A DNA stretch of 43,587 nt from Escherichia phage K1G, in the sequence record NC_027993.1; one strand, 5' to 3'. Below are positions 2,756-12,298 of this stretch, in pieces. The notes under the pieces are model-generated. The model did not search any database. It saw only the letters and a program-made list of their open reading frames with translations, and had not been told where the DNA came from. Each line of letters starts with the position of its first letter. Position 1 is the stretch's first letter. Both the position numbers and the translations under genes were made by a program.

Positions 2756-2776
2756 AGCCCCGAAAGGGGCTTTCTT
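2756..2776 (+). terminator. hairpin AGCCCC-GAAA-GGGGCT followed by T-rich run
   Basis: perfect 6-bp GC stem with GAAA loop then TTCTTATAAT; identical hairpin recurs at 4325. Confidence 0.45.
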
Positions 2777-2781
2777 ATAAT

Positions 2782-3858
2782 ATGCTATTAACTTTAGCGC
2801 CACAGGGTTTATTTATGAGCTTACTGACATCATTAATCAGTCACCAGATTTGGCTGCAACGCACCGCATCTGGTGAGGTGAAAGACCTAGCACCATTCAT
2901 TCAGGAGATGCGCGATGAAATCAAACGGCAGGTGTTGTTGTTCGGCGACGACGGGCGAAGCACAGCACGTCTGAATAAATTGTTACGCGACCTAGAAGAA
3001 GCACTGACCGGGTTAACCGGTGACTGGCAAACGAAGCTGACAGAAGACCTTAAGGAACTGGCGGCGTACGAGGCCGAGTGGAATGTGAAGACACTCGCGG
3101 CTAACGTTAACACGGAATTTGTTACCCCTACCGCTGAGCAGGTGTGGTCCGCCGCTGTGTTCCAACCGCTGGCTTTAAGCGACAAGCCAGCAGATTTCAC
3201 GAAACTTATGGAAGGCTGGGGTGAAACAGAAGTGTCGCGCCTAGTAACTGGCGTTAAGATGGGGTTTGTACAGGGCCAGACAACACGGCAGATTATCAAG
3301 AGCGTTGTTGGCTCCGGCGGGCTGGCGGACATCTCAGAGCGCAATGCCGCTACCGTAATCCGCACCGCACTTTCACACGTATCTAACGAAGCCCGCAACG
3401 AGACTTATCGGCAGAACAGCGACATCATCGAGAAATACGAATGGGTGTCAACACTGGACAGCCGTACCAGCACGATATGCAAGGCCAGAGATGGCATGAC
3501 ATGGGAAATCGGTAAAGGCCCTACGCCGCCAGCCCATCCGAATTGTCGAAGTACCACAGCACCTGTAATTAGCTCAGAGTTCGACTTCCTTGATGCAGGC
3601 GCAAAACGTGCTGCCAAAGGTGCTGATGGCGGAACGCAAGTAAGCGCGGATACCACTTACTACGAGTTCCTTAAACAACAACCGGCGTGGTTTCAGGACC
3701 AGGCGCTCGGCCCGGTGCGAGGTAAGATTTTCCGTAACAGCGGTATATCGCCGGAAGAGTTTCGCGTAATATCTGTAGATGGTTTCGGGAATCCGCTCAC
3801 GCTTAAGCAGATGGCGGAACTCGATAAACGTGTTGCTGATTATCTGAAAGGGGAATAA
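2782..3858 (+). CDS. head morphogenesis / minor capsid protein (start uncertain, alt ATG 2815)
   Basis: 358-aa ORF following portal, the usual position of the head-morphogenesis gene in siphovirus late operons; no strong RBS. Confidence 0.55.
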   Translation: MLLTLAPQGLFMSLLTSLISHQIWLQRTASGEVKDLAPFIQEMRDEIKRQVLLFGDDGRSTARLNKLLRDLEEALTGLTGDWQTKLTEDLKELAAYEAEWNVKTLAANVNTEFVTPTAEQVWSAAVFQPLALSDKPADFTKLMEGWGETEVSRLVTGVKMGFVQGQTTRQIIKSVVGSGGLADISERNAATVIRTALSHVSNEARNETYRQNSDIIEKYEWVSTLDSRTSTICKARDGMTWEIGKGPTPPAHPNCRSTTAPVISSEFDFLDAGAKRAAKGADGGTQVSADTTYYEFLKQQPAWFQDQALGPVRGKIFRNSGISPEEFRVISVDGFGNPLTLKQMAELDKRVADYLKGE

Positions 3859-4319
3859 TGATGGGCTTTTTCAAAGTAACTGACGTACCGTCACGCCGCG
3901 TAGTCCAGTACGCCCGCGTGTCTGGCTCTGGTGAGAACGTGGTGTTTATTGATGATGAAAGTGTACTCGGTACACCCGAAGACGATATGCCGTTTGCAGA
4001 TAAAACCGGTATTGCGTTACCCGCGGCGGGCATGCTTTATGAAATTCCGTATCTGGCGGATGCTGGCGACGTGTATTTCTCAGTGCAACCCGCCGATACA
4101 GAACTGGTAGACGGCCGCGCAACTATCACTGTCGAAGTTAAGGCGGGCAAAGCGCCATATGCGTTGACCTGGTACAAAGACGGGAAGGAAGTGGTCAACG
4201 CCCCGGAAGAGGCTTTGTCTCTGAAGGTTAATGCAGTCGGTGAATACTTCGTTAAAGTCACCGATGCCGATGGGGTAGAGGCCGTCAGTAAAGCGGCGAA
4301 GGTTACTAAGCCAGAATAA
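3858..4319 (+). CDS. Ig-like domain structural protein
   Basis: RBS AAGGGGA; C-terminal segment APYALTWYKDGKEV...GEYFVKV resembles Ig-like fold motif shared with ORF 7366..7716. Confidence 0.5.
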   Translation: MMGFFKVTDVPSRRVVQYARVSGSGENVVFIDDESVLGTPEDDMPFADKTGIALPAAGMLYEIPYLADAGDVYFSVQPADTELVDGRATITVEVKAGKAPYALTWYKDGKEVVNAPEEALSLKVNAVGEYFVKVTDADGVEAVSKAAKVTKPE

Positions 4320-4324
4320 ACTGA

Positions 4325-4344
4325 AGCCCCGAAAGGGGCTTTTT
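4325..4344 (+). terminator. rho-independent terminator
   Basis: AGCCCC-GAAA-GGGGCT hairpin followed by TTTTT. Confidence 0.7.
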
Positions 4345-4408
4345 AGTGCCTGTGATTATTCCAGTTATTCCACTCAATTGTAAATGTTGGAATAAACTAT
4401 TCGAATAG

Positions 4409-4437
4409 TTGACTTTTCACCAAAAATGTGCTAAGCT
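4409..4437 (+). promoter_or_regulatory. sigma70-like promoter TTGACT-N17-TAAGCT with TGn extension; -35 overlaps 16-bp perfect palindrome AACTATTCGAATAGTT (4395-4410)
   Basis: hexamers and spacing read directly; -10 is weak (3/6) but preceded by TG. Confidence 0.45.
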
Positions 4438-4617
4438 CCACCTGAGCTTGTGAAGTATGAACAAGCGACCGCGGCGCGGGCAGGTAACGGAGCGGGACGT
4501 AAGTCCTGAGTGTAGTTACGCTGACGCGTTCGGAAGGGCCATAGTCTATCGCTTGTGTAAAAAAGTAACTGGTTTACTGAGATTACGCCGTTTCTATGTT
4601 TAAATGATAAGGACTAG

Positions 4618-4640
4618 CGCCCCGCTTTATGGCGGGGCTT
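4618..4640 (+). promoter_or_regulatory. leader hairpin GCCCCGC-TTTATG-GCGGGGC (possible attenuator or processing site) just upstream of spanin RBS
   Basis: 7-bp GC stem followed by short TTTA; same hairpin in reverse orientation at 36779-36798. Confidence 0.4.
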
Positions 4641-4662
4641 TACTTATCGAGAAAGGAGAAAC

Positions 4663-5049
4663 ATGAATCTTAACGCAACTGTCGTAGCAGGAGCATGTTT
4701 CATCCTCCTGACATACGGCTACGGAATCTACCAGTATCGCAGCGGCTGGAACGAAGGCCGGGCGAATCTCGTTTCGCAGCAACAGCAGAAAGCACAGGCT
4801 GAGTTAGCGAAGAAAACACAACGGCAGCAGCAGGATGAATCAAAGGCCGCAGCCGCTGACAACGAAGGCAAGACGAAATCAGAGGTGATCACACGTGAAG
4901 TCGTTAAGTACATTAAAACGCCTGGTCGCAGCGTGTGCGCTTTTGACCCTGAGCGCGTGCAGCTCAAGTCCCGCGCCGTCGCAAACGCCAATTCCATCCC
5001 CGGATACGACGATGATGCAGCCGCCGTGCAAACTGGCGCCGCCAAGTAG
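4663..5049 (+). CDS. i-spanin (Rz-like)
   Basis: 128 aa; N-terminal TM segment VVAGACFILLTYGYGIY, Gln/Ala-rich coiled-coil periplasmic region; RBS AAGGAG; embedded out-of-frame lipoprotein ORF. Confidence 0.65.
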   Translation: MNLNATVVAGACFILLTYGYGIYQYRSGWNEGRANLVSQQQQKAQAELAKKTQRQQQDESKAAAADNEGKTKSEVITREVVKYIKTPGRSVCAFDPERVQLKSRAVANANSIPGYDDDAAAVQTGAAK

Positions 5050-5158
5050 CGACGCTGACGAGGATTTAGCTGCCGACGTCCGGAACGCCGAATGCGCACG
5101 GCAACTGCGCCTGAAAGTATTCCAGTTGCAGGATTATGTGAGGAATATTCTGGAATAG
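4895..5158 (+). CDS. o-spanin (Rz1-like lipoprotein), GTG start, +1 frame embedded in and extending past i-spanin
   Basis: signal peptide with lipobox LTLSAC, proline-rich mature region; RBS AGAGGTG upstream of GTG. Confidence 0.65.
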   Translation: MKSLSTLKRLVAACALLTLSACSSSPAPSQTPIPSPDTTMMQPPCKLAPPSSDADEDLAADVRNAECARQLRLKVFQLQDYVRNILE

Positions 5159-5240
5159 TTGCCTTGCATGTTGGAATAATTTATTCTTGACATGTAAATC
5201 CGGGTGGCCCGGGTTCCAACGTCCAGGGGACATACTGACT

Positions 5241-5942
5241 ATGAATCGTTTTTTACGTTATCCGTTCCAGGAAGAAGCTGGAGCAGAAGATAAATCAGGC
5301 GGCGGTGACGCACCTAAAATGTACACAGCCGAAGAAGTGCAGGCGCTGATTGAGAAAGAAGTCGCCGGGCTTAAGGCTAACCAGGAAGCATTGCTGAACG
5401 AGAAGAAAGAAGCCGCTCGTAAAGCAAAAGAGGCCGAAGAAGAGCGGCAGCGTGCACACCAGGAGGCCCTGAAAGCCGCCGGTAAGATGGACGAGTTCGA
5501 AAAGACGATTCGTAGCCAGTATGACCCGGTGTTAGCCGAGAAAGATGGTCGCATCTCCAGAATGGCAGAGCGCATCCTCGGCAGCGAACGCAAAGCGGTG
5601 TTAGGTTCTTTCGCGGGTGACTTCATTACCCCGGAAGCAGTAGACATTCTCGCGCCGTTCGTTAAGACTGAGTTTGAAGGTGATGATGTGGTTACTAAGT
5701 TTGTCGGCGCGGATGGCAACGTAGTCACAACTGACCCGGAACAGTTCCGCAAATACCTGCGCGAACATAAAGCGTTTTCGCATTTGATTAAAGCAAATGC
5801 AGCTTCCGGCGGCGGGGCTTCCGGTAGCAAAGGCGGCGGGGCCGCACCAGCGTTTAAAGACATGAGTGAAGCAGAGCGTTTAGCCCTGTATAAATCGAAC
5901 CCTGCCGAATTTGAACGGCAACTTAAAGCCCTGAGGAAATAA
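5241..5942 (+). CDS. scaffolding protein
   Basis: Ala/Glu/Lys-rich coiled-coil protein immediately upstream of major capsid gene; RBS AGGGGA before ATG at 5241 (track ORF begins further upstream at 5187). Confidence 0.55.
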   Translation: MNRFLRYPFQEEAGAEDKSGGGDAPKMYTAEEVQALIEKEVAGLKANQEALLNEKKEAARKAKEAEEERQRAHQEALKAAGKMDEFEKTIRSQYDPVLAEKDGRISRMAERILGSERKAVLGSFAGDFITPEAVDILAPFVKTEFEGDDVVTKFVGADGNVVTTDPEQFRKYLREHKAFSHLIKANAASGGGASGSKGGGAAPAFKDMSEAERLALYKSNPAEFERQLKALRK

Positions 5943-5944
5943 TA

Positions 5945-6994
5945 ATGGCAATTACCACTATCGGCGATATCGTAACTGGCAACATCCCGGTCCTGGCGTC
6001 TTATATGACCGAGGACCCGGTAGAAAAAACCGCGTTCTTCCAGTCTGGTATTCTGACCCCGACTCCGTACGCTGCCGAGATTGCTCGCGGTCCGTCCAAC
6101 GTCGCCAACATTCCTTTCTGGAAAGCGATTGATACTTCTATCGAGCCTAACTACTCGAACGATGTTTATCAGGACATCGCTACCCCGCGTAATGTGCAGA
6201 CTGGCGAGATGATGGCCCGCGTTGCGTACCTGAACGAAGGTTTCGGTCAGGCGGACCTGACTGTCGAACTGACCAGCCAGAACCCTCTGCAATCCGTAGC
6301 GTCCCGTCTGGATAACTTCTGGCAGCGTCAGGCACAACGCCGTCTGATTGCTACCGCGCTCGGTCTGTACAACGACAACGTAGCTGCTACCGATGCTTAC
6401 CATACGCAGAACGATATGGTTATCGACGTGTCCGCTACTCTGGGCTTCGACGCAGGTGCGTTCATCGACGCCACTCAGACTATGGGCGATGCTCTGATGG
6501 GTAACGGTGGTGAGGTGCTGGGCGCTATCGCGATGCACAGCTTCGTTTATGCACAGGCGCGTAAGCAGCAGCTTATCGACTTCATTCGCGACGCTGACAA
6601 CAACACCATGTTTGCTAGCTACCAGGGCTACCGTGTGATTGTTGACGACAGCATGACCGTAGTCGGCACCGGCCCGAGCCGTAAGTTCATCTCCATCATC
6701 TTTGGCAACGGTGCCATCGGTTATGGTGAAGGCAACCCGTCCAACCCGCTGGAATACGAACGTGAAGCGTCCCGCGGCAATGGTGGCGGCGTTGAAACCC
6801 TGTGGACCCGTAAGACCTGGTTGCTGCACCCACTGGGCTACAGCTTCACCAGCGCGGTAATCACCGGCAACGGCACCGAGACTGTCGCCCGCTCCGCTTC
6901 CTGGCAGGACCTGGCGAACGCCTCCAACTGGAACCGTGTGGTTGACCGTAAGCATGTACCGATTGCCTTCCTGGTAACTGGTGTCGGGGCTTAA
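5945..6994 (+). CDS. major capsid protein
   Basis: 349-aa ORF after scaffold, RBS GAGGA, followed by strong terminator; position and size. Confidence 0.7.
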   Translation: MAITTIGDIVTGNIPVLASYMTEDPVEKTAFFQSGILTPTPYAAEIARGPSNVANIPFWKAIDTSIEPNYSNDVYQDIATPRNVQTGEMMARVAYLNEGFGQADLTVELTSQNPLQSVASRLDNFWQRQAQRRLIATALGLYNDNVAATDAYHTQNDMVIDVSATLGFDAGAFIDATQTMGDALMGNGGEVLGAIAMHSFVYAQARKQQLIDFIRDADNNTMFASYQGYRVIVDDSMTVVGTGPSRKFISIIFGNGAIGYGEGNPSNPLEYEREASRGNGGGVETLWTRKTWLLHPLGYSFTSAVITGNGTETVARSASWQDLANASNWNRVVDRKHVPIAFLVTGVGA

Positions 6995-7010
6995 GGTTAA
7001 GATATAATCG

Positions 7011-7037
7011 AGAGGGACTTCGGTCCCTCTTTTCATT
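7011..7037 (+). terminator. rho-independent terminator
   Basis: AGAGGGAC-TTCG-GTCCCTCT hairpin (UUCG tetraloop) followed by TTTCATTT. Confidence 0.7.
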
Positions 7038-7053
7038 TACTAAGAGGTAAATT

Positions 7054-7353
7054 ATGGCTAAGACCGGAAAAGGCTTGCCTCGCAGCCTTCAGAATGTCGA
7101 CTTCGGCGACTTTGACATCCCAGTAACGCCGGCTACTACCAGCGTAGTTGGTGGGGTTAAAAAGTCAGCTACTGTAGCCGCCCCCGCGGCCATTACCGCT
7201 GCCGCCGGGTCGCAGTCCGCTGCGGACCCGACTAAGACCGAGTTCGATGCCCTTGTAGCCGAGTACAACAAACTTCGAACTGATGTAACCGCGCTGCGCA
7301 CTACCGTAGCAAATCTGTTGACTGCGCTTAAAAATGCAGGAACTGTAAGCTAA
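7054..7353 (+). CDS. hypothetical structural protein
   Basis: 99-aa ORF with RBS AAGAGG; in head gene block. Confidence 0.5.
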   Translation: MAKTGKGLPRSLQNVDFGDFDIPVTPATTSVVGGVKKSATVAAPAAITAAAGSQSAADPTKTEFDALVAEYNKLRTDVTALRTTVANLLTALKNAGTVS

Positions 7354-7365
7354 AGGAGCTTAAAA

Positions 7366-7716
7366 ATGGTTGATGTAATCAAACGTCGTATTACTGGTGT
7401 TTCTGATGATTCTCCTGCCGATGGTCAGGTTGAAATCGATATGGCGAATATCTCGCCCGCATCTTTTTCTACCGCACTTGCCGCTACCACTACCAAGTCT
7501 ACGGGGCAGACGATGACCCTTACTGTAGCCGTAATCGGCGGTCTGGCCCCGTACACATACCAGTGGTACAAAGATAACAACGCTATCCCTGGCGCTACCG
7601 CCGCCACCTACGAGAAAACTTCGCTCGCTACTACCGATTCCGGTACGTATAAAGTGGTTGTTCACGATGTGTATGGTAATATTATCTCCAGCAGCACTGT
7701 AGCAACTGTGTCTTAA
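7366..7716 (+). CDS. Ig-like domain protein
   Basis: RBS AAAGGAG; motif APYTYQWYKDNNAI...SGTYKVVV paralogous to C-terminus of 3858..4319. Confidence 0.5.
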   Translation: MVDVIKRRITGVSDDSPADGQVEIDMANISPASFSTALAATTTKSTGQTMTLTVAVIGGLAPYTYQWYKDNNAIPGATAATYEKTSLATTDSGTYKVVVHDVYGNIISSSTVATVS

Positions 7717-7752
7717 TACAACGGCCCTTCGGGGCCGTAATAAGGAAAGGTC

Positions 7753-7932
7753 ATGGCAGATAATTATGTAATCCGCGAAAAGTACACCCACGTTGATATG
7801 GTTGATGGTCAGGTGATACCCGTGCGCGGTGTTGTAGAGGCGGATGAGCTGGTTGCAACCCAACCGGACAGCGAAGAAGCGCACAACAACGGCGGTGGGA
7901 CTAAACGTCGTCGCCGTAAGTCTGAGGAATAG
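7753..7932 (+). CDS. small hypothetical protein (59 aa, below ORF-track cutoff)
   Basis: ATG preceded by AAGGAAAGG RBS and by hairpin ACGGCCC-TTCG-GGGCCGT (7721-7738); basic C-terminus. Confidence 0.4.
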   Translation: MADNYVIREKYTHVDMVDGQVIPVRGVVEADELVATQPDSEEAHNNGGGTKRRRRKSEE

Positions 7933-7986: not shown

Positions 7987-8736
7987 ATGAACTACGCCAA
8001 AATCTATGAACAGTTAATATCGAACGCAAAAATCAATCCGTTTAGTGGGTATACCGAAAAACATCACATAGTCCCGAAATGCATGGGTGGTGGGGATACT
8101 TTTGACAATATTGTATCTTTGAGCGCTAGACAGCATTTTATTGCGCATTGGCTTCTCTATAAGATACACGGGACTAAAGAACTAGCTTTCGCCTGGAGGG
8201 TTATGTGTATTAACCCTAAAAACAATCAAAGGTCAAAAGTTAACTCACATTCCTTTAAGTTGGCGAAAGAGGCTTGGGCTATAGAGATGTCCAGGTTGAA
8301 TACTGGTGTTAAATTTTCTGATAAACGTATAGAAAATCTCAGACAAGCACATCTAGGGCAAAAGGCGTGGAATAAAGGAATTGCTACCGGGGAAACTGCA
8401 AGTAGAAAAGCCAGAATAGAGCATTACATGGCGAACCCACAACGATGTGTAACATGCGACCAGCCGATCCACTACCGTTTTAAATCACGAGCGCGTAAAT
8501 ATTGCTGCAAGAAATGCCAGTTCGCGGACCCAAATAGAATCGTTGGCAAGGTTAATAGAAAACCTAACTCCGGAAGTTTTAAGAAGGGCCATACGTTAAA
8601 GGGCGAGACTGTCAAGAAAATTTCAGATAAACTTACTGGAATGAAACGCCCGCGCGGGGTATGCCCACATTGCGGAACCGAAGGGGCGCTATCTCTTCTA
8701 AAGAGGTGGCACTTTGATAACTGTAAGAAGGGGTGA
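7987..8736 (+). CDS. HNH endonuclease
   Basis: motif HHIVPKCMGGGDTFDNIVSLSARQHFIAHW (HNH His-Asn-His core) plus C-terminal CxxC pairs; RBS AAAAGGGTG. Confidence 0.8.
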   Translation: MNYAKIYEQLISNAKINPFSGYTEKHHIVPKCMGGGDTFDNIVSLSARQHFIAHWLLYKIHGTKELAFAWRVMCINPKNNQRSKVNSHSFKLAKEAWAIEMSRLNTGVKFSDKRIENLRQAHLGQKAWNKGIATGETASRKARIEHYMANPQRCVTCDQPIHYRFKSRARKYCCKKCQFADPNRIVGKVNRKPNSGSFKKGHTLKGETVKKISDKLTGMKRPRGVCPHCGTEGALSLLKRWHFDNCKKG

Positions 8737-10716: not shown

Positions 10717-11129
10717 TGGGCTACTTTGAGGACTTAACAAAAGCGTTCGATGTTCCGCTGGTAGCCTTCGGAACCGCCAACGGCATCAAGGTCGCGCTTG
10801 AAAACATCGACGCGCCGACGTCAACCGATACGCCATATCTGGCAAGTTACATGTTACTGGCGGATACCGAGCAAGCAGATTTGTTCTTCACGGAACAACG
10901 CGCGGGTGTTTATCAGGTCGACATTAACTACGCATCGGTGAAAGGTAGCGCGCCAATCAATAAAATGGCAGACTTACTTAACACGGCATTCAAAGCAGGT
11001 AAGTCATTTTCTCGTAACGACATCTGCGCCGAGGTTCAATCGGTTAGCCTGGGGCCGCTGATTGTAGAAAACGGATGGGCCAAACGACCATTGTCAATTA
11101 ACTTTATTGCATTCACCAAGAGGCTGTGA
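10713..11129 (+). CDS. hypothetical tail-associated protein
   Basis: ATGA overlap with upstream gene. Confidence 0.55.
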   Translation: MMGYFEDLTKAFDVPLVAFGTANGIKVALENIDAPTSTDTPYLASYMLLADTEQADLFFTEQRAGVYQVDINYASVKGSAPINKMADLLNTAFKAGKSFSRNDICAEVQSVSLGPLIVENGWAKRPLSINFIAFTKRL

Positions 11130-11131
11130 AT

Positions 11132-12298
11132 ATGGCTACAACTCCTTTTAAGGGCGCGAATACTGCGCAATTCTATGTGGCAGAAACTACCCCTGGCGTA
11201 ACACCGACTAACCCGGTCTGGTCGCCATTGCGTAACACAGGTGGCGTTCCTGCCATTACCCGCGACACGCTGACCTCCAACGAACTGGACGGCAGCCGTG
11301 AAACTACGTCAATCCGCACCGGTAACAAGCAGGTTAGCGGAGAATACGCTATTGAGCTTAGCTCGAAAAGCCAGGACGACTGGCTGGCGGGTGCTTTAGG
11401 CTCTACATGGCAATCCGGTAGTTCTCTGACCGGGCTATCAATTACCGTCGCGCCTGCAGACAAGACCTTTACCCGTGCCGAAGGTAGCTTTATTTCTGAC
11501 GGCGTTGAAGTGGGCGACCTGATTGCGTTTACCGACTTAACCGGTGACAACGCAAAACCGTTTATCGTAACTGCAGTAGAGGCGCTGGTAGTGACCGGGG
11601 CGGGTATCCAGCATACCCTGACCACAGAGACAGTAACTACCGCCGCTAAGACAGGGGATAAACTGGAAACGGGAAGCCAGTGCAAGACGTTCTCTATTCT
11701 CACCTGGTACAAAGGCCAGTGCGGCGGGACTGACGCGTACACACTAACCAAAGGCGTGGAAGTTTCTGGTTTTACCATCGAACAGGCTGTTAACGCTATG
11801 GTAACTGGCAGCTTCCCGTTCATCGGTCGCAGTCAGGAGATTCTCACCACGCAGCCGTCTGGTTCTGATTTCTCCTCTGTTACGTTTGGTGACGAGCCAT
11901 TCTCCTCGGTCGATGTTTCTGTGTTCGACGGTTCTACGCCGTTGCGTTGCGACAGCCTGACCATCACCAACGACAACAGCGCGTCCGCACAGTTCGAACT
12001 CGGCAACACTAACGTAGCGTTTGTGGAGCGTAGCCGAGCAGCTAACACCTTCTCCATCTCCGGTAAGCTGTACGACATGGCGATGATTCAGAAGTTTATC
12101 AACGAGCAGCAGGTGGAGATTAACTCTATTCTGGCGGGGGTAAACGGGGCTATGTCTTTCAGTTTGAAACGTGCAGAACTTACGGCGGTTACACCTGAGA
12201 TTGGAGGACCTGAGTCAATCACTCAGTCTATTGAAGGCCAGGCTACCGGCAACCAGTACCAGTCGTCTATTGTTATTCAGCGTATCACATACGCATAA
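11132..12298 (+). CDS. major tail protein (by position)
   Basis: 389-aa Thr/Ser/Gly-rich protein upstream of chaperone and tape measure genes, followed by strong terminator; RBS AGAGG before ATG 11132. Confidence 0.55.
   Translation: MATTPFKGANTAQFYVAETTPGVTPTNPVWSPLRNTGGVPAITRDTLTSNELDGSRETTSIRTGNKQVSGEYAIELSSKSQDDWLAGALGSTWQSGSSLTGLSITVAPADKTFTRAEGSFISDGVEVGDLIAFTDLTGDNAKPFIVTAVEALVVTGAGIQHTLTTETVTTAAKTGDKLETGSQCKTFSILTWYKGQCGGTDAYTLTKGVEVSGFTIEQAVNAMVTGSFPFIGRSQEILTTQPSGSDFSSVTFGDEPFSSVDVSVFDGSTPLRCDSLTITNDNSASAQFELGNTNVAFVERSRAANTFSISGKLYDMAMIQKFINEQQVEINSILAGVNGAMSFSLKRAELTAVTPEIGGPESITQSIEGQATGNQYQSSIVIQRITYA

What the first reader, a model, noticed from the sequence alone, without database searches (positions are those of the whole stretch)
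3858..7716. Ig-like domain duplicated in two separate small structural genes
ORFs 3858..4319 and 7366..7716 share the motif PY-x-x-x-WYKD-x-x and a following GxY-x-VKV/KVVV strand pattern typical of Ig-like (I-set/BIG) domains. In many phages such domains are appended to capsid or tail proteins; here they are free-standing, suggesting accessory decoration proteins.
Basis: seen in the sequence. Interest (0 to 1): 0.3.

Follow-up and report, generated by a model that had tools for sequence, protein, structure and literature searches.

The report
Two unrelated-origin Ig-domain virion accessory proteins
Two small genes in the head module of this Kagunavirus-like E. coli phage each encode a short N-terminal anchor plus one immunoglobulin-like domain, which makes them ordinary, already-annotated putative "Hoc-like" decoration proteins and not a duplicated pair.

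Summary
ORF-A (3858-4319, 153 aa) and ORF-B (7366-7716, 116 aa) are real, conserved genes. They share the PYxxxWYK(D)...GxYxV motif (BLASTP E 8e-8, 41% over 54 aa), and it occurs nowhere else in the window.

AlphaFold2 with Foldseek, plus PDB and PHROG sequence matches, show a C-terminal I-set/Ig_3-type Ig domain in both. The nearest structures are phage decoration proteins (N4 gp17, Moo19, T5 pb10, RB49 Hoc).

The window is a near-complete Kagunavirus genome, 92-94% identical to Bas70 and KMB35. In such genomes both genes are already annotated "Hoc-like head decoration", and in Ent2 (2014) "putative head decoration/Hoc".

"Duplicated" is not supported. ORF-B's Ig domain is closer to T5 pb10, to tail-tube C-terminal Ig domains and to RB16 fibritin (55-69 bits) than to ORF-A (34 bits). 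The motif is the signature of a widespread phage Ig subclass. ORF-A is older, being present in Serratia phage Eta, which has no ORF-B.

Neither protein is a bare Ig domain. ORF-A has a 70-aa lineage-specific N-terminal module. ORF-B has about 29 N-terminal residues homologous to the end of a tail-tube domain.

Virion location is unproven. Capsid decoration is the likeliest reading. Interest is low.

The parts
3858..4319 (+). ORF-A gene (153 aa), a putative decoration protein and the last gene of the terL-portal-MuF operon
   Evidence: ORF listing. phrog_3945 'Hoc-like head decoration', E 5e-85, full length. 487 phage records carry it. Same position in Bas70, wksl3, Jersey, Ent2 and Serratia Eta.
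3858..4067 (+). ORF-A residues 1-70: a lineage-specific N-terminal module, the presumed virion anchor
   Evidence: More conserved than the Ig part (0.45 vs 0.65 bits entropy over 121 sequences). AF2 pLDDT <50. No Pfam or PDB homologue. Only 14 hits among 1.84 billion representative proteins. The remote homologue P0253 keeps this module with a different C-terminal domain.
4068..4316 (+). ORF-A residues 71-153: Ig-like (I-set/Ig_3-type) domain
   Evidence: AF2 pLDDT about 75-94 with a 7-8-strand sandwich. Foldseek PDB: N4 gp17 E 1.6e-5, MALT1 Ig, Axl, Moo19, Robo, titin. BFVD: outer capsid, decorating and tail proteins. PDB sequence hit to titin I-set, E 5e-10.
4155..4181 (+). PYALTWYKD motif (end of strand B through strand C) in ORF-A
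   Evidence: Regex and translation.
4324..4341 (.). GC-rich hairpin with a T-run: an intrinsic terminator directly after ORF-A
   Evidence: Sequence GCCCCGAAAGGGGCTTTTT. Reported by the scan. An equivalent terminator is annotated after Eta gene 44.
5945..6994 (+). Major capsid protein (SPP1 gp13-like), the most likely binding partner
   Evidence: PDB 4an5 and 6r3a, E 1e-42. phrog_247.
7010..7031 (+). Terminator-like hairpin after the capsid gene, which would lower expression of the two downstream accessory genes
7054..7353 (+). 99-aa 'head fibre' gene: a conserved 24-aa N-terminus, an Ala/Thr-rich linker and a C-terminal coiled coil. It is always immediately upstream of ORF-B.
   Evidence: phrog_4366, E 1.6e-42. 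Weak phi29 head-fibre C-terminal match. Variants in Jersey and Ent2 keep only the N-terminus.
7366..7716 (+). ORF-B gene (116 aa), a putative Hoc/pb10-like accessory protein
   Evidence: phrog_4069, E 1e-57, full length. About 500 phage records with >=80% coverage. Annotated 'Hoc-like head decoration' or 'putative Hoc protein'.
7366..7452 (+). ORF-B residues 1-29: a near-invariant N-terminal segment. Residues 9-29 are homologous to the last strands and linker of a tail-tube domain.
   Evidence: Alignment to Klebsiella phage 6991 and Vibrio pYD38-A major tail protein residues 140-160. Found in 455 records, none from Serratia.
7453..7713 (+). ORF-B residues 30-116: Ig-like domain of the 'GGxxPYTYQWYK' phage subclass
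   Evidence: PDB sequence hits: 9ncf_S E 3e-29, 9c2d_S E 4e-24, T5 pb10 8zvi and 5lxk E 1e-13. Pfam Ig_3 28.6 bits, Ig_2, SprB, I-set, all just below cut-offs. AF2 and Foldseek.
7549..7575 (+). PYTYQWYKD motif in ORF-B
2782..3858 (+). MuF/SPP1 gp7-like head morphogenesis gene. Its stop codon overlaps the ORF-A start by 1 nt.
   Evidence: Pfam PF04233, E 3.5e-13. Junction sequence.

Best explanation
ORF-A and ORF-B are two separately acquired virion-surface accessory proteins of a Kagunavirus (Guernseyvirinae) siphophage. They are not recent paralogues. Each has a conserved N-terminal anchor and one solvent-exposed C-terminal I-set/Ig_3-type immunoglobulin-like domain.

ORF-A (70-aa anchor plus Ig) matches T5 pb10 in architecture and gene position, since both are encoded just downstream of the portal region. 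It most likely sits on the SPP1-like T=7 capsid, for example one copy per hexamer.

ORF-B (about 29-aa anchor plus Ig) is encoded with a small 'head fibre' gene right after the capsid gene, behind an attenuating terminator. It most likely forms a second head decoration, or is attached to the head fibre.

By analogy with Hoc and pb10, the exposed Ig domains would give weak, non-essential adhesion to glycans (host surface polysaccharide or mucus) and/or modest capsid stabilisation.

Shown: gene reality, conservation, Ig fold, domain architecture, non-sister relationship, synteny. Inferred: virion incorporation, capsid as the binding site, stoichiometry, ligand.
For: - Ig fold. Sequence matches to solved phage Ig domains, including T5 pb10 and Ig-decorated tail proteins.
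- Family assignment: phrog_3945 and phrog_4069, full length.
- Late structural operon context with a terminator after ORF-A and after the capsid gene.
- Synteny is conserved in Bas70, wksl3, Jersey and Ent2.
- Anchor-plus-display architecture. The ORF-A N-terminus is more conserved than its Ig part. The remote homologue P0253 keeps the anchor (hhalign 97.7%, E 2e-12) but carries a different Ig-like C-terminus, in a podovirus-like contig that has no long tail tube.
- pb10 analogy. In a T5-like phage the 163-aa pb10 gene directly follows and overlaps the portal gene. pb10 is an N-terminal capsid-binding domain plus a C-terminal Ig domain bound at hexamer centres (PMC5292684).
- Not a duplication. 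The B-family HMM scores pb10 66, JenP2 tube 66, RB16 wac 60, Kp6991 tube 59, and ORF-A only 23 bits. tblastn with ORF-B finds one place per Kagunavirus genome. The NJ tree gives A and B as separate 100% clades that are never sisters. ORF-A is present in Serratia Eta but ORF-B and the head fibre are not.
- Precedent for two decoration proteins on one capsid: Sf14 (PMC11821841).
Against: - No direct evidence places either protein in the virion. The Eta proteome covered only gel bands of 38 kDa or more. The T102 and wksl3 tables could not be read. No related capsid structure is in the PDB, and a 2026 paper calls the group structurally uncharacterized.
- Neither anchor resembles a known capsid-binding domain. 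pb10's N-terminal domain is alpha-helical, whereas the low-confidence ORF-A model shows strands.
- ORF-B's closest relatives include tail-tube C-terminal domains, and its N-terminus derives from a tube domain, so a tail location is possible.
- Public annotations disagree: tail protein, neck whiskers, fibritin, decoration.
- The AF2 alignments were shallow (24 sequences at >=66% identity), and the ORF-B model is only moderately confident.
Confidence: 0.6

Rival explanations
1. Intragenomic duplication: one Ig-domain gene was duplicated within this phage lineage and the two copies diverged.
For: - The two are detectably homologous.
- With the ORF-A family profile, the window's ORF-B is the best non-self hit among the 16 domains tested, at 38.5 bits.
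- They are the only two such domains in the genome.
Against: - The relationship is not reciprocal. The ORF-B profile ranks ORF-A last, at 23 bits, behind pb10, three tail-tube proteins, RB16 fibritin and a Felixounavirus I-set protein.
- The Jerseyvirus ORF-B scores only 20 bits with the A profile, so the window-specific resemblance lies in the generic GGxxPYxxxWYKD signature shared by the whole subclass (alignment).
- All ORF-A orthologues share a 3-residue deletion in the C'-E region that is absent from ORF-B and the others.
- The N-terminal parts are unrelated.
- Phyletic ranges differ: Eta has A but not B.
Confidence: 0.08
2. One or both proteins sit on the tail or neck rather than the capsid. 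ORF-B would be a detached tail-tube Ig module that decorates the tube or acts as a collar/whisker protein. ORF-A could be a portal-proximal or tailspike-associated protein.
For: - ORF-B residues 9-101 are 43% identical (68 bits) to the C-terminal 93 residues of the 250-aa major tail proteins of Klebsiella phage 6991 and Vibrio pYD38-A, including the pre-Ig segment ITGxxxxxPxDG.
- The window's own tube protein is homologous to the JenP2 tube but lacks JenP2's C-terminal Ig, which is 43% identical to ORF-B.
- Ig domains of this subclass occur on RB16 fibritin and on a solved 'neck whiskers protein'.
- Many records annotate the genes as tail or whisker proteins.
- ORF-A follows the portal and MuF genes. 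Its remote homologue lies next to a tail-fibre gene whose N-terminus matches the family of the window's tailspike N-terminus.
Against: - Both genes lie in the head half of the module, upstream of the head-tail adaptor.
- ORF-B is paired with a head-fibre-like gene directly after the capsid gene.
- By visual comparison with JenP2's C-terminus in the sequences printed, the window tube protein appears to keep its own terminal hairpin, so nothing obvious is left to complement. No alignment was computed for that segment, because the BLAST alignment stops before it.
- The 'tail' and 'whisker' names are similarity-transfer labels, not experiments.
- The pb10 gene also follows the portal gene yet pb10 is a capsid protein.
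Confidence: 0.25
3. The proteins are not virion components. They could be assembly factors or proteins acting in the infected cell or lysate.
For: No proteomic detection was found. The ORF-A N-terminus is predicted as disordered or uncertain.
Against: - Every characterised relative of this Ig subclass is displayed on a virion: pb10, Hoc, N4 gp17, tube and fibritin domains.
- The genes are in late structural operons, and neither translated sequence begins with an obvious hydrophobic signal-peptide-like stretch (read by eye from the translations; no signal-peptide predictor was run).
- The Eta study excised only bands of 38 kDa or more, so non-detection there is uninformative.
Confidence: 0.06
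4. The Ig domains are really added to a neighbouring structural protein (MuF or head fibre) by programmed frameshift or readthrough, as in many phages, and are not independent proteins.
For: ORF-A overlaps the MuF stop by 1 nt. ORF-B is in the same frame as the head-fibre ORF in this window, separated by one stop codon plus 12 nt.
Against: - Both have their own ATG and Shine-Dalgarno sequence.
- The junctions vary among relatives. MuF/ORF-A shows a 1-nt overlap here, a 2-nt gap in wksl3, Jersey and Ent2, and a 10-nt gap in Eta. Head fibre and ORF-B are in different frames in Jersey.
- No slippery site was seen by eye in the two junction sequences, and no dedicated frameshift-site search was run.
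Confidence: 0.02

Closest known systems
T5 decoration protein pb10 (PDB 5lxk, 8zvi; Vernhes et al. 2017, PMC5292684)
   Same: - It is a small protein (164 aa) with an N-terminal anchor and a single C-terminal Ig domain, and it is monomeric and non-essential.
- The ORF-B Ig domain is 49% identical to pb10's (65.5 bits; PDB E 1e-13).
- ORF-A has the same two-domain size and layout, and a similar gene position just after the portal region.
   Different: - pb10's N-terminal domain is alpha-helical and has no sequence similarity to either anchor.
- ORF-B's anchor is only about 29 residues.
- T5 has a T=13 capsid of a different MCP family, whereas here the MCP is SPP1-like.
- Binding at hexamer centres is unproven here.
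T4 Hoc and 'Hoc-like' decoration proteins (PHROGs 3945, 4069, 2973; RB49 Hoc 3shs; Sf14 gp20)
   Same: Ig-like domains displayed from the capsid. The window proteins are full-length members of PHROG families 3945 and 4069, which carry this label. RB49 Hoc appears among the Foldseek hits.
   Different: True Hoc has three or four tandem Ig-like domains at the N-terminus and a C-terminal capsid-binding domain (PMC10385173 abstract). Here there is one Ig domain and the anchor is N-terminal. 'Hoc-like' is a functional label, not evidence of orthology.
C-terminal Ig domains of siphophage tail-tube proteins (Roufvirus pYD38-A / Klebsiella phage 6991 major tail protein; JenP2 tail protein; lambda gpV-C type arrangement)
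   Same: These are the best full-length pairwise matches to ORF-B: 43% identity and 68-69 bits, and for 6991 and pYD38-A the match includes the pre-Ig segment.
   Different: In those phages the domain is covalently fused to the tube protein. ORF-B lacks the tube domain, has its own start codon, and lies in the head module.
Phage N4 gp17 / Moo19 Ig-like capsid decoration proteins (PDB 9e99, 9d7z)
   Same: These are the top structural matches to both AF2 models. They are capsid-surface Ig proteins.
   Different: They are larger (about 180-280 aa) with a different anchoring region, low sequence identity (21-36%), and belong to podoviruses with other MCP lineages.

Membership tests
Immunoglobulin-like beta-sandwich, I-set/Ig_3 type (Pfam clan Ig) | Seven- to nine-strand Greek-key beta-sandwich fold | tested here: met
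   AF2 strands at residues 73-150 (ORF-A) and 39-108 (ORF-B). Foldseek probability 1.00 to I-set domains and phage Ig decorations.
Immunoglobulin-like beta-sandwich, I-set/Ig_3 type (Pfam clan Ig) | Score at or above Pfam gathering threshold for an Ig family model | tested here: not met
   ORF-B scores Ig_3 28.6 vs 30, Ig_2 24.4 vs 27 and I-set 19.9 vs 23.7. ORF-A scores Ig_3 19.4 vs 30. Close homologues of ORF-B do carry precomputed PF13927, PF13895 and PF07679 hits. This is a near miss, not an exclusion.
Immunoglobulin-like beta-sandwich, I-set/Ig_3 type (Pfam clan Ig) | Core sequence signatures: the conserved Trp of strand C and the D-x-G-x-Y 'tyrosine corner' before strand F | tested here: met
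   W105 and W67 are present. ORF-B has DSGTY. ORF-A has a degenerate form, A-V-G-E-Y, with no Asp. Both Trp residues are invariant in the alignments. The B-F disulfide cysteines are absent, as in pb10.
   E 0.063 and 13.7 bits vs cut-off 22.8 for ORF-A. No hit for ORF-B.
PHROG 3945 / PHROG 4069 ('Hoc-like head decoration') | Full-length HMM match | tested here: met
   ORF-A matches phrog_3945 at E 5e-85, positions 1-152 of 152. ORF-B matches phrog_4069 at E 1e-57, positions 1-116 of 116.
PHROG 3945 / PHROG 4069 ('Hoc-like head decoration') | Experimentally shown location on the capsid | not testable with these tools
   No proteomic or structural data were found for any member.
T5 pb10 family | C-terminal Ig domain homologous to pb10's C-terminal domain | tested here: met
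   ORF-B: PDB 5lxk and 8zvi at E 1e-13, and 49% identity to Epseptimavirus pb10. ORF-A only weakly: E 0.008, 31.6 bits.
T5 pb10 family | N-terminal alpha-helical capsid-binding domain homologous to pb10's N-terminal domain | tested here: not met
   All alignments to pb10 cover the Ig part only. A profile of the ORF-A N-terminus finds nothing in the PDB.
T5 pb10 family | Binds the centre of capsid hexamers | not testable with these tools
   This needs cryo-EM or binding assays.
T4 Hoc family proper | Tandem N-terminal Ig-like domains followed by a C-terminal capsid-binding domain | tested here: not met
   There is a single Ig domain at the C-terminus and the non-Ig part is N-terminal.
Tail-tube protein with C-terminal Ig domain | Tail-tube fold domain N-terminal to the Ig domain | tested here: not met
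   ORF-B aligns only to residues 140-232 of the 250-aa tube proteins. Only about 20 residues of the tube domain remain.

The most novel reading that the evidence does not exclude
ORF-B is a tail-tube Ig module that became a separate gene. It would be a 3' fragment of a tube-Ig fusion gene, keeping the last strands of the tube fold, that now works in trans. It would dock through that remnant hairpin onto the tube, the neck or the head fibre, so that this phage group decorates its virion with a 'split' version of what JenP2-like phages encode as one polypeptide. Together with ORF-A and the head fibre, this would form a three-part system of conserved anchor plus swappable tip.
Probability: 0.12. 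Interest if true: 0.45.

Novelty: already known. Interest (0 to 1): 0.15.

Why it matters
It matters little beyond annotation quality. Public records of this very common phage group (about 490 genomes) call these two genes tail protein, fibritin, neck whiskers, Hoc or decoration protein, with no experiment behind any label.

This analysis shows three things. They are single Ig-domain proteins with distinct anchors. They do not arise from one duplication. ORF-B is related to pb10 and to tube-appended domains.

If they are confirmed as dispensable surface proteins, they would be convenient display sites on small Kagunavirus chassis used for phage engineering. They would also be candidates for glycan- or mucus-adherence effects in therapeutic phages.

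Tried and rejected
- **Frameshift or readthrough fusion to MuF or the head fibre.** Rejected, because both genes have their own SD and ATG and the junctions are variable.
- **Homology of the ORF-A N-terminus to pb10's N-terminal domain or any solved structure.** None was found. The 1.84-billion-protein profile search gave only orthologues, fragments, assembly chimeras and one remote homologue.
- **Virion proteomics.** The Eta tables cover only bands of 38 kDa or more. The T102 supplement, the wksl3 paper and the Jerseyvirinae paper are not held. JSSK01 identified only the coat protein.
- **A related solved virion.** Only the SPP1 coat protein and one distant tail protein turned up.
- **A third Ig domain of this class in the window** (tube, hub, tailspike). 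None was found.
- **RNA elements in the ORF-A/spanin intergenic region.** No Rfam or tRNA hit and an unremarkable fold.
- **The NJ tree.** Its deep branches are unresolved (bootstraps 5-42%), so it is used only to show that A and B are not sisters.

Full report
**Context**

The window is an almost complete genome of a Kagunavirus-like siphophage (Guernseyvirinae). The segment 3700-7800 is 92-94% identical at nucleotide level to E. coli phages KMB35, ST20, Bas70 and Bas75, and 483 phage records match it.

The gene order is as follows:
- TerL, 1-1251
- portal, 1264-2745
- MuF/SPP1-gp7-like head morphogenesis protein, 2782-3858
- ORF-A, 3858-4319
- spanins, 4663-5158
- scaffold, 5187-5942
- SPP1-like major capsid protein, 5945-6994
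- a 99-aa 'head fibre', 7054-7353
- ORF-B, 7366-7716
- a conserved 59-aa ORF
- an inserted HNH homing endonuclease
- then the head-tail adaptor and tail genes

**Observation check**

The ORF-A start ATG uses the last A of the MuF TAA stop as its first base, with GGGG upstream. ORF-B has AAGGAG 7 nt before its ATG.

The motif is real: PYALTWYKD...GEYFVKVTD in ORF-A and PYTYQWYKD...GTYKVVVHD in ORF-B. A six-frame search finds it only at these two places. Pairwise BLASTP gives E 8e-8 with 22/54 identities. HMMs of each family's Ig region detect the other ORF and nothing else in the window.

**What the shared segment is**

AlphaFold2 on alignments of homologues gives a confident beta-sandwich for ORF-A residues 71-153 (block pLDDT about 75-94). 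For ORF-B residues ~38-110 the sandwich is moderately confident (67-85). The N-terminal parts have low confidence.

Foldseek against the PDB returns, for both models:
- the Ig-like capsid decoration proteins of phage N4 (9e99) and Moo19 (9d7z);
- I-set domains of MALT1 for both models, plus Axl, Robo and titin for ORF-A;
- for ORF-B, also T5 pb10 and RB49 Hoc.

Against predicted viral structures, the ORF-A model hits outer-capsid, 'decorating' and tail proteins.

By sequence, ORF-B matches Ig-repeat tail proteins (9ncf_S E 3e-29, 9c2d_S E 4e-24) and T5 pb10 (E 1e-13). ORF-A matches titin I-set domains (E 5e-10) and, weakly, pb10.

Pfam hits are Ig_3, Ig_2, I-set and SprB, all just under their gathering scores. 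Big_2 is not supported.

**Already annotated**

- ORF-A is a full-length member of phrog_3945 and ORF-B of phrog_4069, both labelled 'Hoc-like head decoration'.
- Bas70, wksl3 and Jersey annotate both genes that way.
- Ent2 already called them 'putative head decoration protein' and 'putative Hoc protein'.
- Other records call the same genes tail protein, fibritin or neck whiskers. The labels are similarity transfers, not experiments.

**Not a duplicated pair**

1. The ORF-B-family Ig profile gives the following scores:

| Target | Bits |
|---|---|
| T5-like pb10 | 66.3 |
| JenP2 tube protein | 66.0 |
| RB16 fibritin domains | 46-60 |
| Klebsiella phage 6991 tube protein | 59.0 |
| Sortsne tail protein | 55.2 |
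| Felixounavirus I-set protein | 35-37 |
| ORF-A orthologues | 23-33 |

2. Pairwise BLASTP of ORF-B gives 68 bits to the 6991 and JenP2 tube proteins and 65.5 to pb10, but 34-37 to ORF-A orthologues.

3. tblastn with ORF-B at E<=1e-3 finds one place per Kagunavirus genome. It does not find ORF-A, yet it finds Ig domains in 1,730 phage records.

4. With the ORF-A profile, the window's ORF-B is the top outside hit (38.5 bits), but the Jerseyvirus ORF-B scores only 20. The window-specific resemblance lies in the GGxxPYxxxW(Y/K)K signature. That signature is shared by pb10, tube proteins and fibritin domains alike (alignment).

5. All ORF-A orthologues share a 3-residue deletion between strands C' and E. 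In an NJ tree, A and B form separate 100% clades and are never sisters, although the deep nodes are unresolved.

6. The phyletic ranges differ.
   - ORF-A occurs in 487 records, including Serratia, Enterobacter and Hafnia phages. Serratia Eta has it at 54% identity, again after the MuF gene and followed by a terminator.
   - ORF-B's N-terminus occurs in 455 records, none from Serratia. Eta has neither ORF-B nor the head fibre.

The simplest reading is two separate captures from the mobile pool of phage Ig domains. That such domains are promiscuously exchanged among phage structural proteins is established knowledge (Fraser et al. 2006, cited from memory).

**Neither is a bare Ig domain**

*ORF-A.* Residues 1-70 form a distinct module.
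- It is more conserved than the Ig part (0.45 vs 0.65 bits mean column entropy across 121 sequences).
- It has no Pfam or PDB relative.
- It has only 14 hits among 1.84 billion representative proteins. These are orthologues, fragments, chimeric mis-assemblies and one informative remote homologue, P0253.
- P0253 keeps the N-terminal module (hhalign probability 97.7%, E 2e-12; phrog_3945 E 2e-11). It carries a different Ig-like C-terminus (phrog_13745). It lies in a 35-kb podovirus-like contig between a T7-type TerL and a tail-fibre gene.

This is the pattern expected of a constant anchor with a swappable displayed domain. It also argues against a long-tail-tube binding site for the anchor.

*ORF-B.* Residues 1-29 are nearly invariant. 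Residues 9-29 align to the segment ...ITGSVEFKPYDGSTVDVSSIED... that ends the tube domain of the 250-aa major tail proteins of Klebsiella phage 6991 and Vibrio pYD38-A. The alignment runs on through the Ig domain, at 43% identity over 94 columns.

ORF-B therefore looks like the 3' part of a tube-Ig gene that acquired its own start. The window's own tube protein (11126-12298) is homologous to the JenP2 tube protein but stops where JenP2's Ig domain begins, and that domain is 43% identical to ORF-B.

**Expression context**

Hairpin terminators follow the portal gene, ORF-A (GCCCCGAAAGGGGCTTTTT at 4324-4345) and the capsid gene (7010-7031). A hairpin without a T-run follows ORF-B.

ORF-A thus closes the terL-portal-MuF operon. 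The head fibre and ORF-B lie behind an attenuator after the capsid gene. That placement would fit sub-stoichiometric decoration, such as 60 hexamer sites against about 415 capsid subunits if the capsid is T=7. The stoichiometry is inference.

**Likely mechanism (inferred)**

ORF-A resembles T5 pb10 in size, in domain order, and in being encoded just after the portal region. In the T5-like phage TrudiRoth the 163-aa pb10 gene overlaps the portal gene's end.

pb10 binds hexamer centres through its N-terminal domain, exposes its Ig domain, and protects the capsid only under extreme conditions (PMC5292684).

I therefore commit to the following reading. ORF-A is a monomeric capsid decoration anchored by residues 1-70. 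ORF-B is a second Ig-bearing accessory protein of the head, attached to the capsid or to the head fibre by its about 29-residue N-terminus. The Ig domains mediate weak glycan adhesion and/or minor stabilisation. Two decoration proteins on one capsid have precedent in Sf14 (PMC11821841).

Approximate confidence by step:

| Step | Confidence |
|---|---|
| Ig fold | 0.97 |
| Independent origin | 0.85 |
| Virion surface | 0.8 |
| Capsid rather than neck or tail | 0.55 |

**What is missing**

No experiment places either protein in a virion.
- The Eta virion proteome covered only gel bands of 38 kDa or more. It did find the MuF-like protein, portal, capsid and tail proteins.
- The T102 table, the wksl3 paper and the Jerseyvirinae paper could not be read.
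- A 2026 paper calls Guernseyvirinae structurally uncharacterized.
- The PDB holds no related virion.

A tail or neck location, especially for ORF-B, remains a live rival (about 0.25).

**Verdict**

The sequence observation is confirmed and the Ig and accessory-protein interpretation is essentially right, but it is already standard annotation for this abundant phage group. The 'duplication' framing is wrong. The tube-domain remnant at the start of ORF-B and the anchor-swap homologue of ORF-A are small points I did not see mentioned in the annotations and papers read here. Interest is low (0.15).

Noticed in passing
window 7054-7353: The 99-aa 'head fibre' gene has a conserved 24-aa N-terminus, but its middle and C-terminal parts are replaced in Jersey and Ent2 (123 aa). 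It always lies directly upstream of ORF-B and is absent, together with ORF-B, from Serratia phage Eta. In the Bas70 record the gene is frameshifted and is annotated as 67 aa. The break appears, by eye, to be near the window's C5 run (about 7185-7189).
   Followed up: partly
window 7987-8736: An HNH homing endonuclease (phrog_655) is inserted between the conserved 59-aa ORF (7753-7932) and the head-tail adaptor gene. It is absent at this site in Bas70, wksl3, Jersey and Ent2.
   Followed up: partly
window 4320-4662: The intergenic region after ORF-A has a promoter-like TTGACT-N17-TAAGCT (about 4409-4437), then about 200 nt ending in a strong terminator (4619-4638) just before the spanin gene. 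This could be a small transcript or a leader. There is no Rfam or tRNA match, and the fold z-score is -1.7.
   Followed up: partly
window 4663-5158: The spanin genes sit in the middle of the head-gene module, between ORF-A and the scaffold gene. This unusual placement was also remarked for Serratia phage Eta (PMC3918226).
   Followed up: no
window 11126-12298: The tail-tube protein (phrog_290) is homologous to the Nonagvirus JenP2 tube protein. It lacks JenP2's C-terminal Ig domain and instead has about 60 extra internal residues relative to the PHROG profile.
   Followed up: partly
L011 8001-8480 (metagenome contig SRR12366591_5105): A podovirus-like 35-kb contig encodes a remote homologue of the ORF-A anchor fused to a different Ig-like domain, between a T7-type TerL and a tail fibre. 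The fibre's N-terminus weakly matches phrog_13893, the family of the window's tailspike N-terminus.
   Followed up: partly
window 2756-2771, 4324-4341, 7010-7031, 7726-7741: GC-rich GNRA/UUCG-type hairpins follow the portal gene, ORF-A, the capsid gene and ORF-B. This suggests the late operon is punctuated by attenuators.
   Followed up: no
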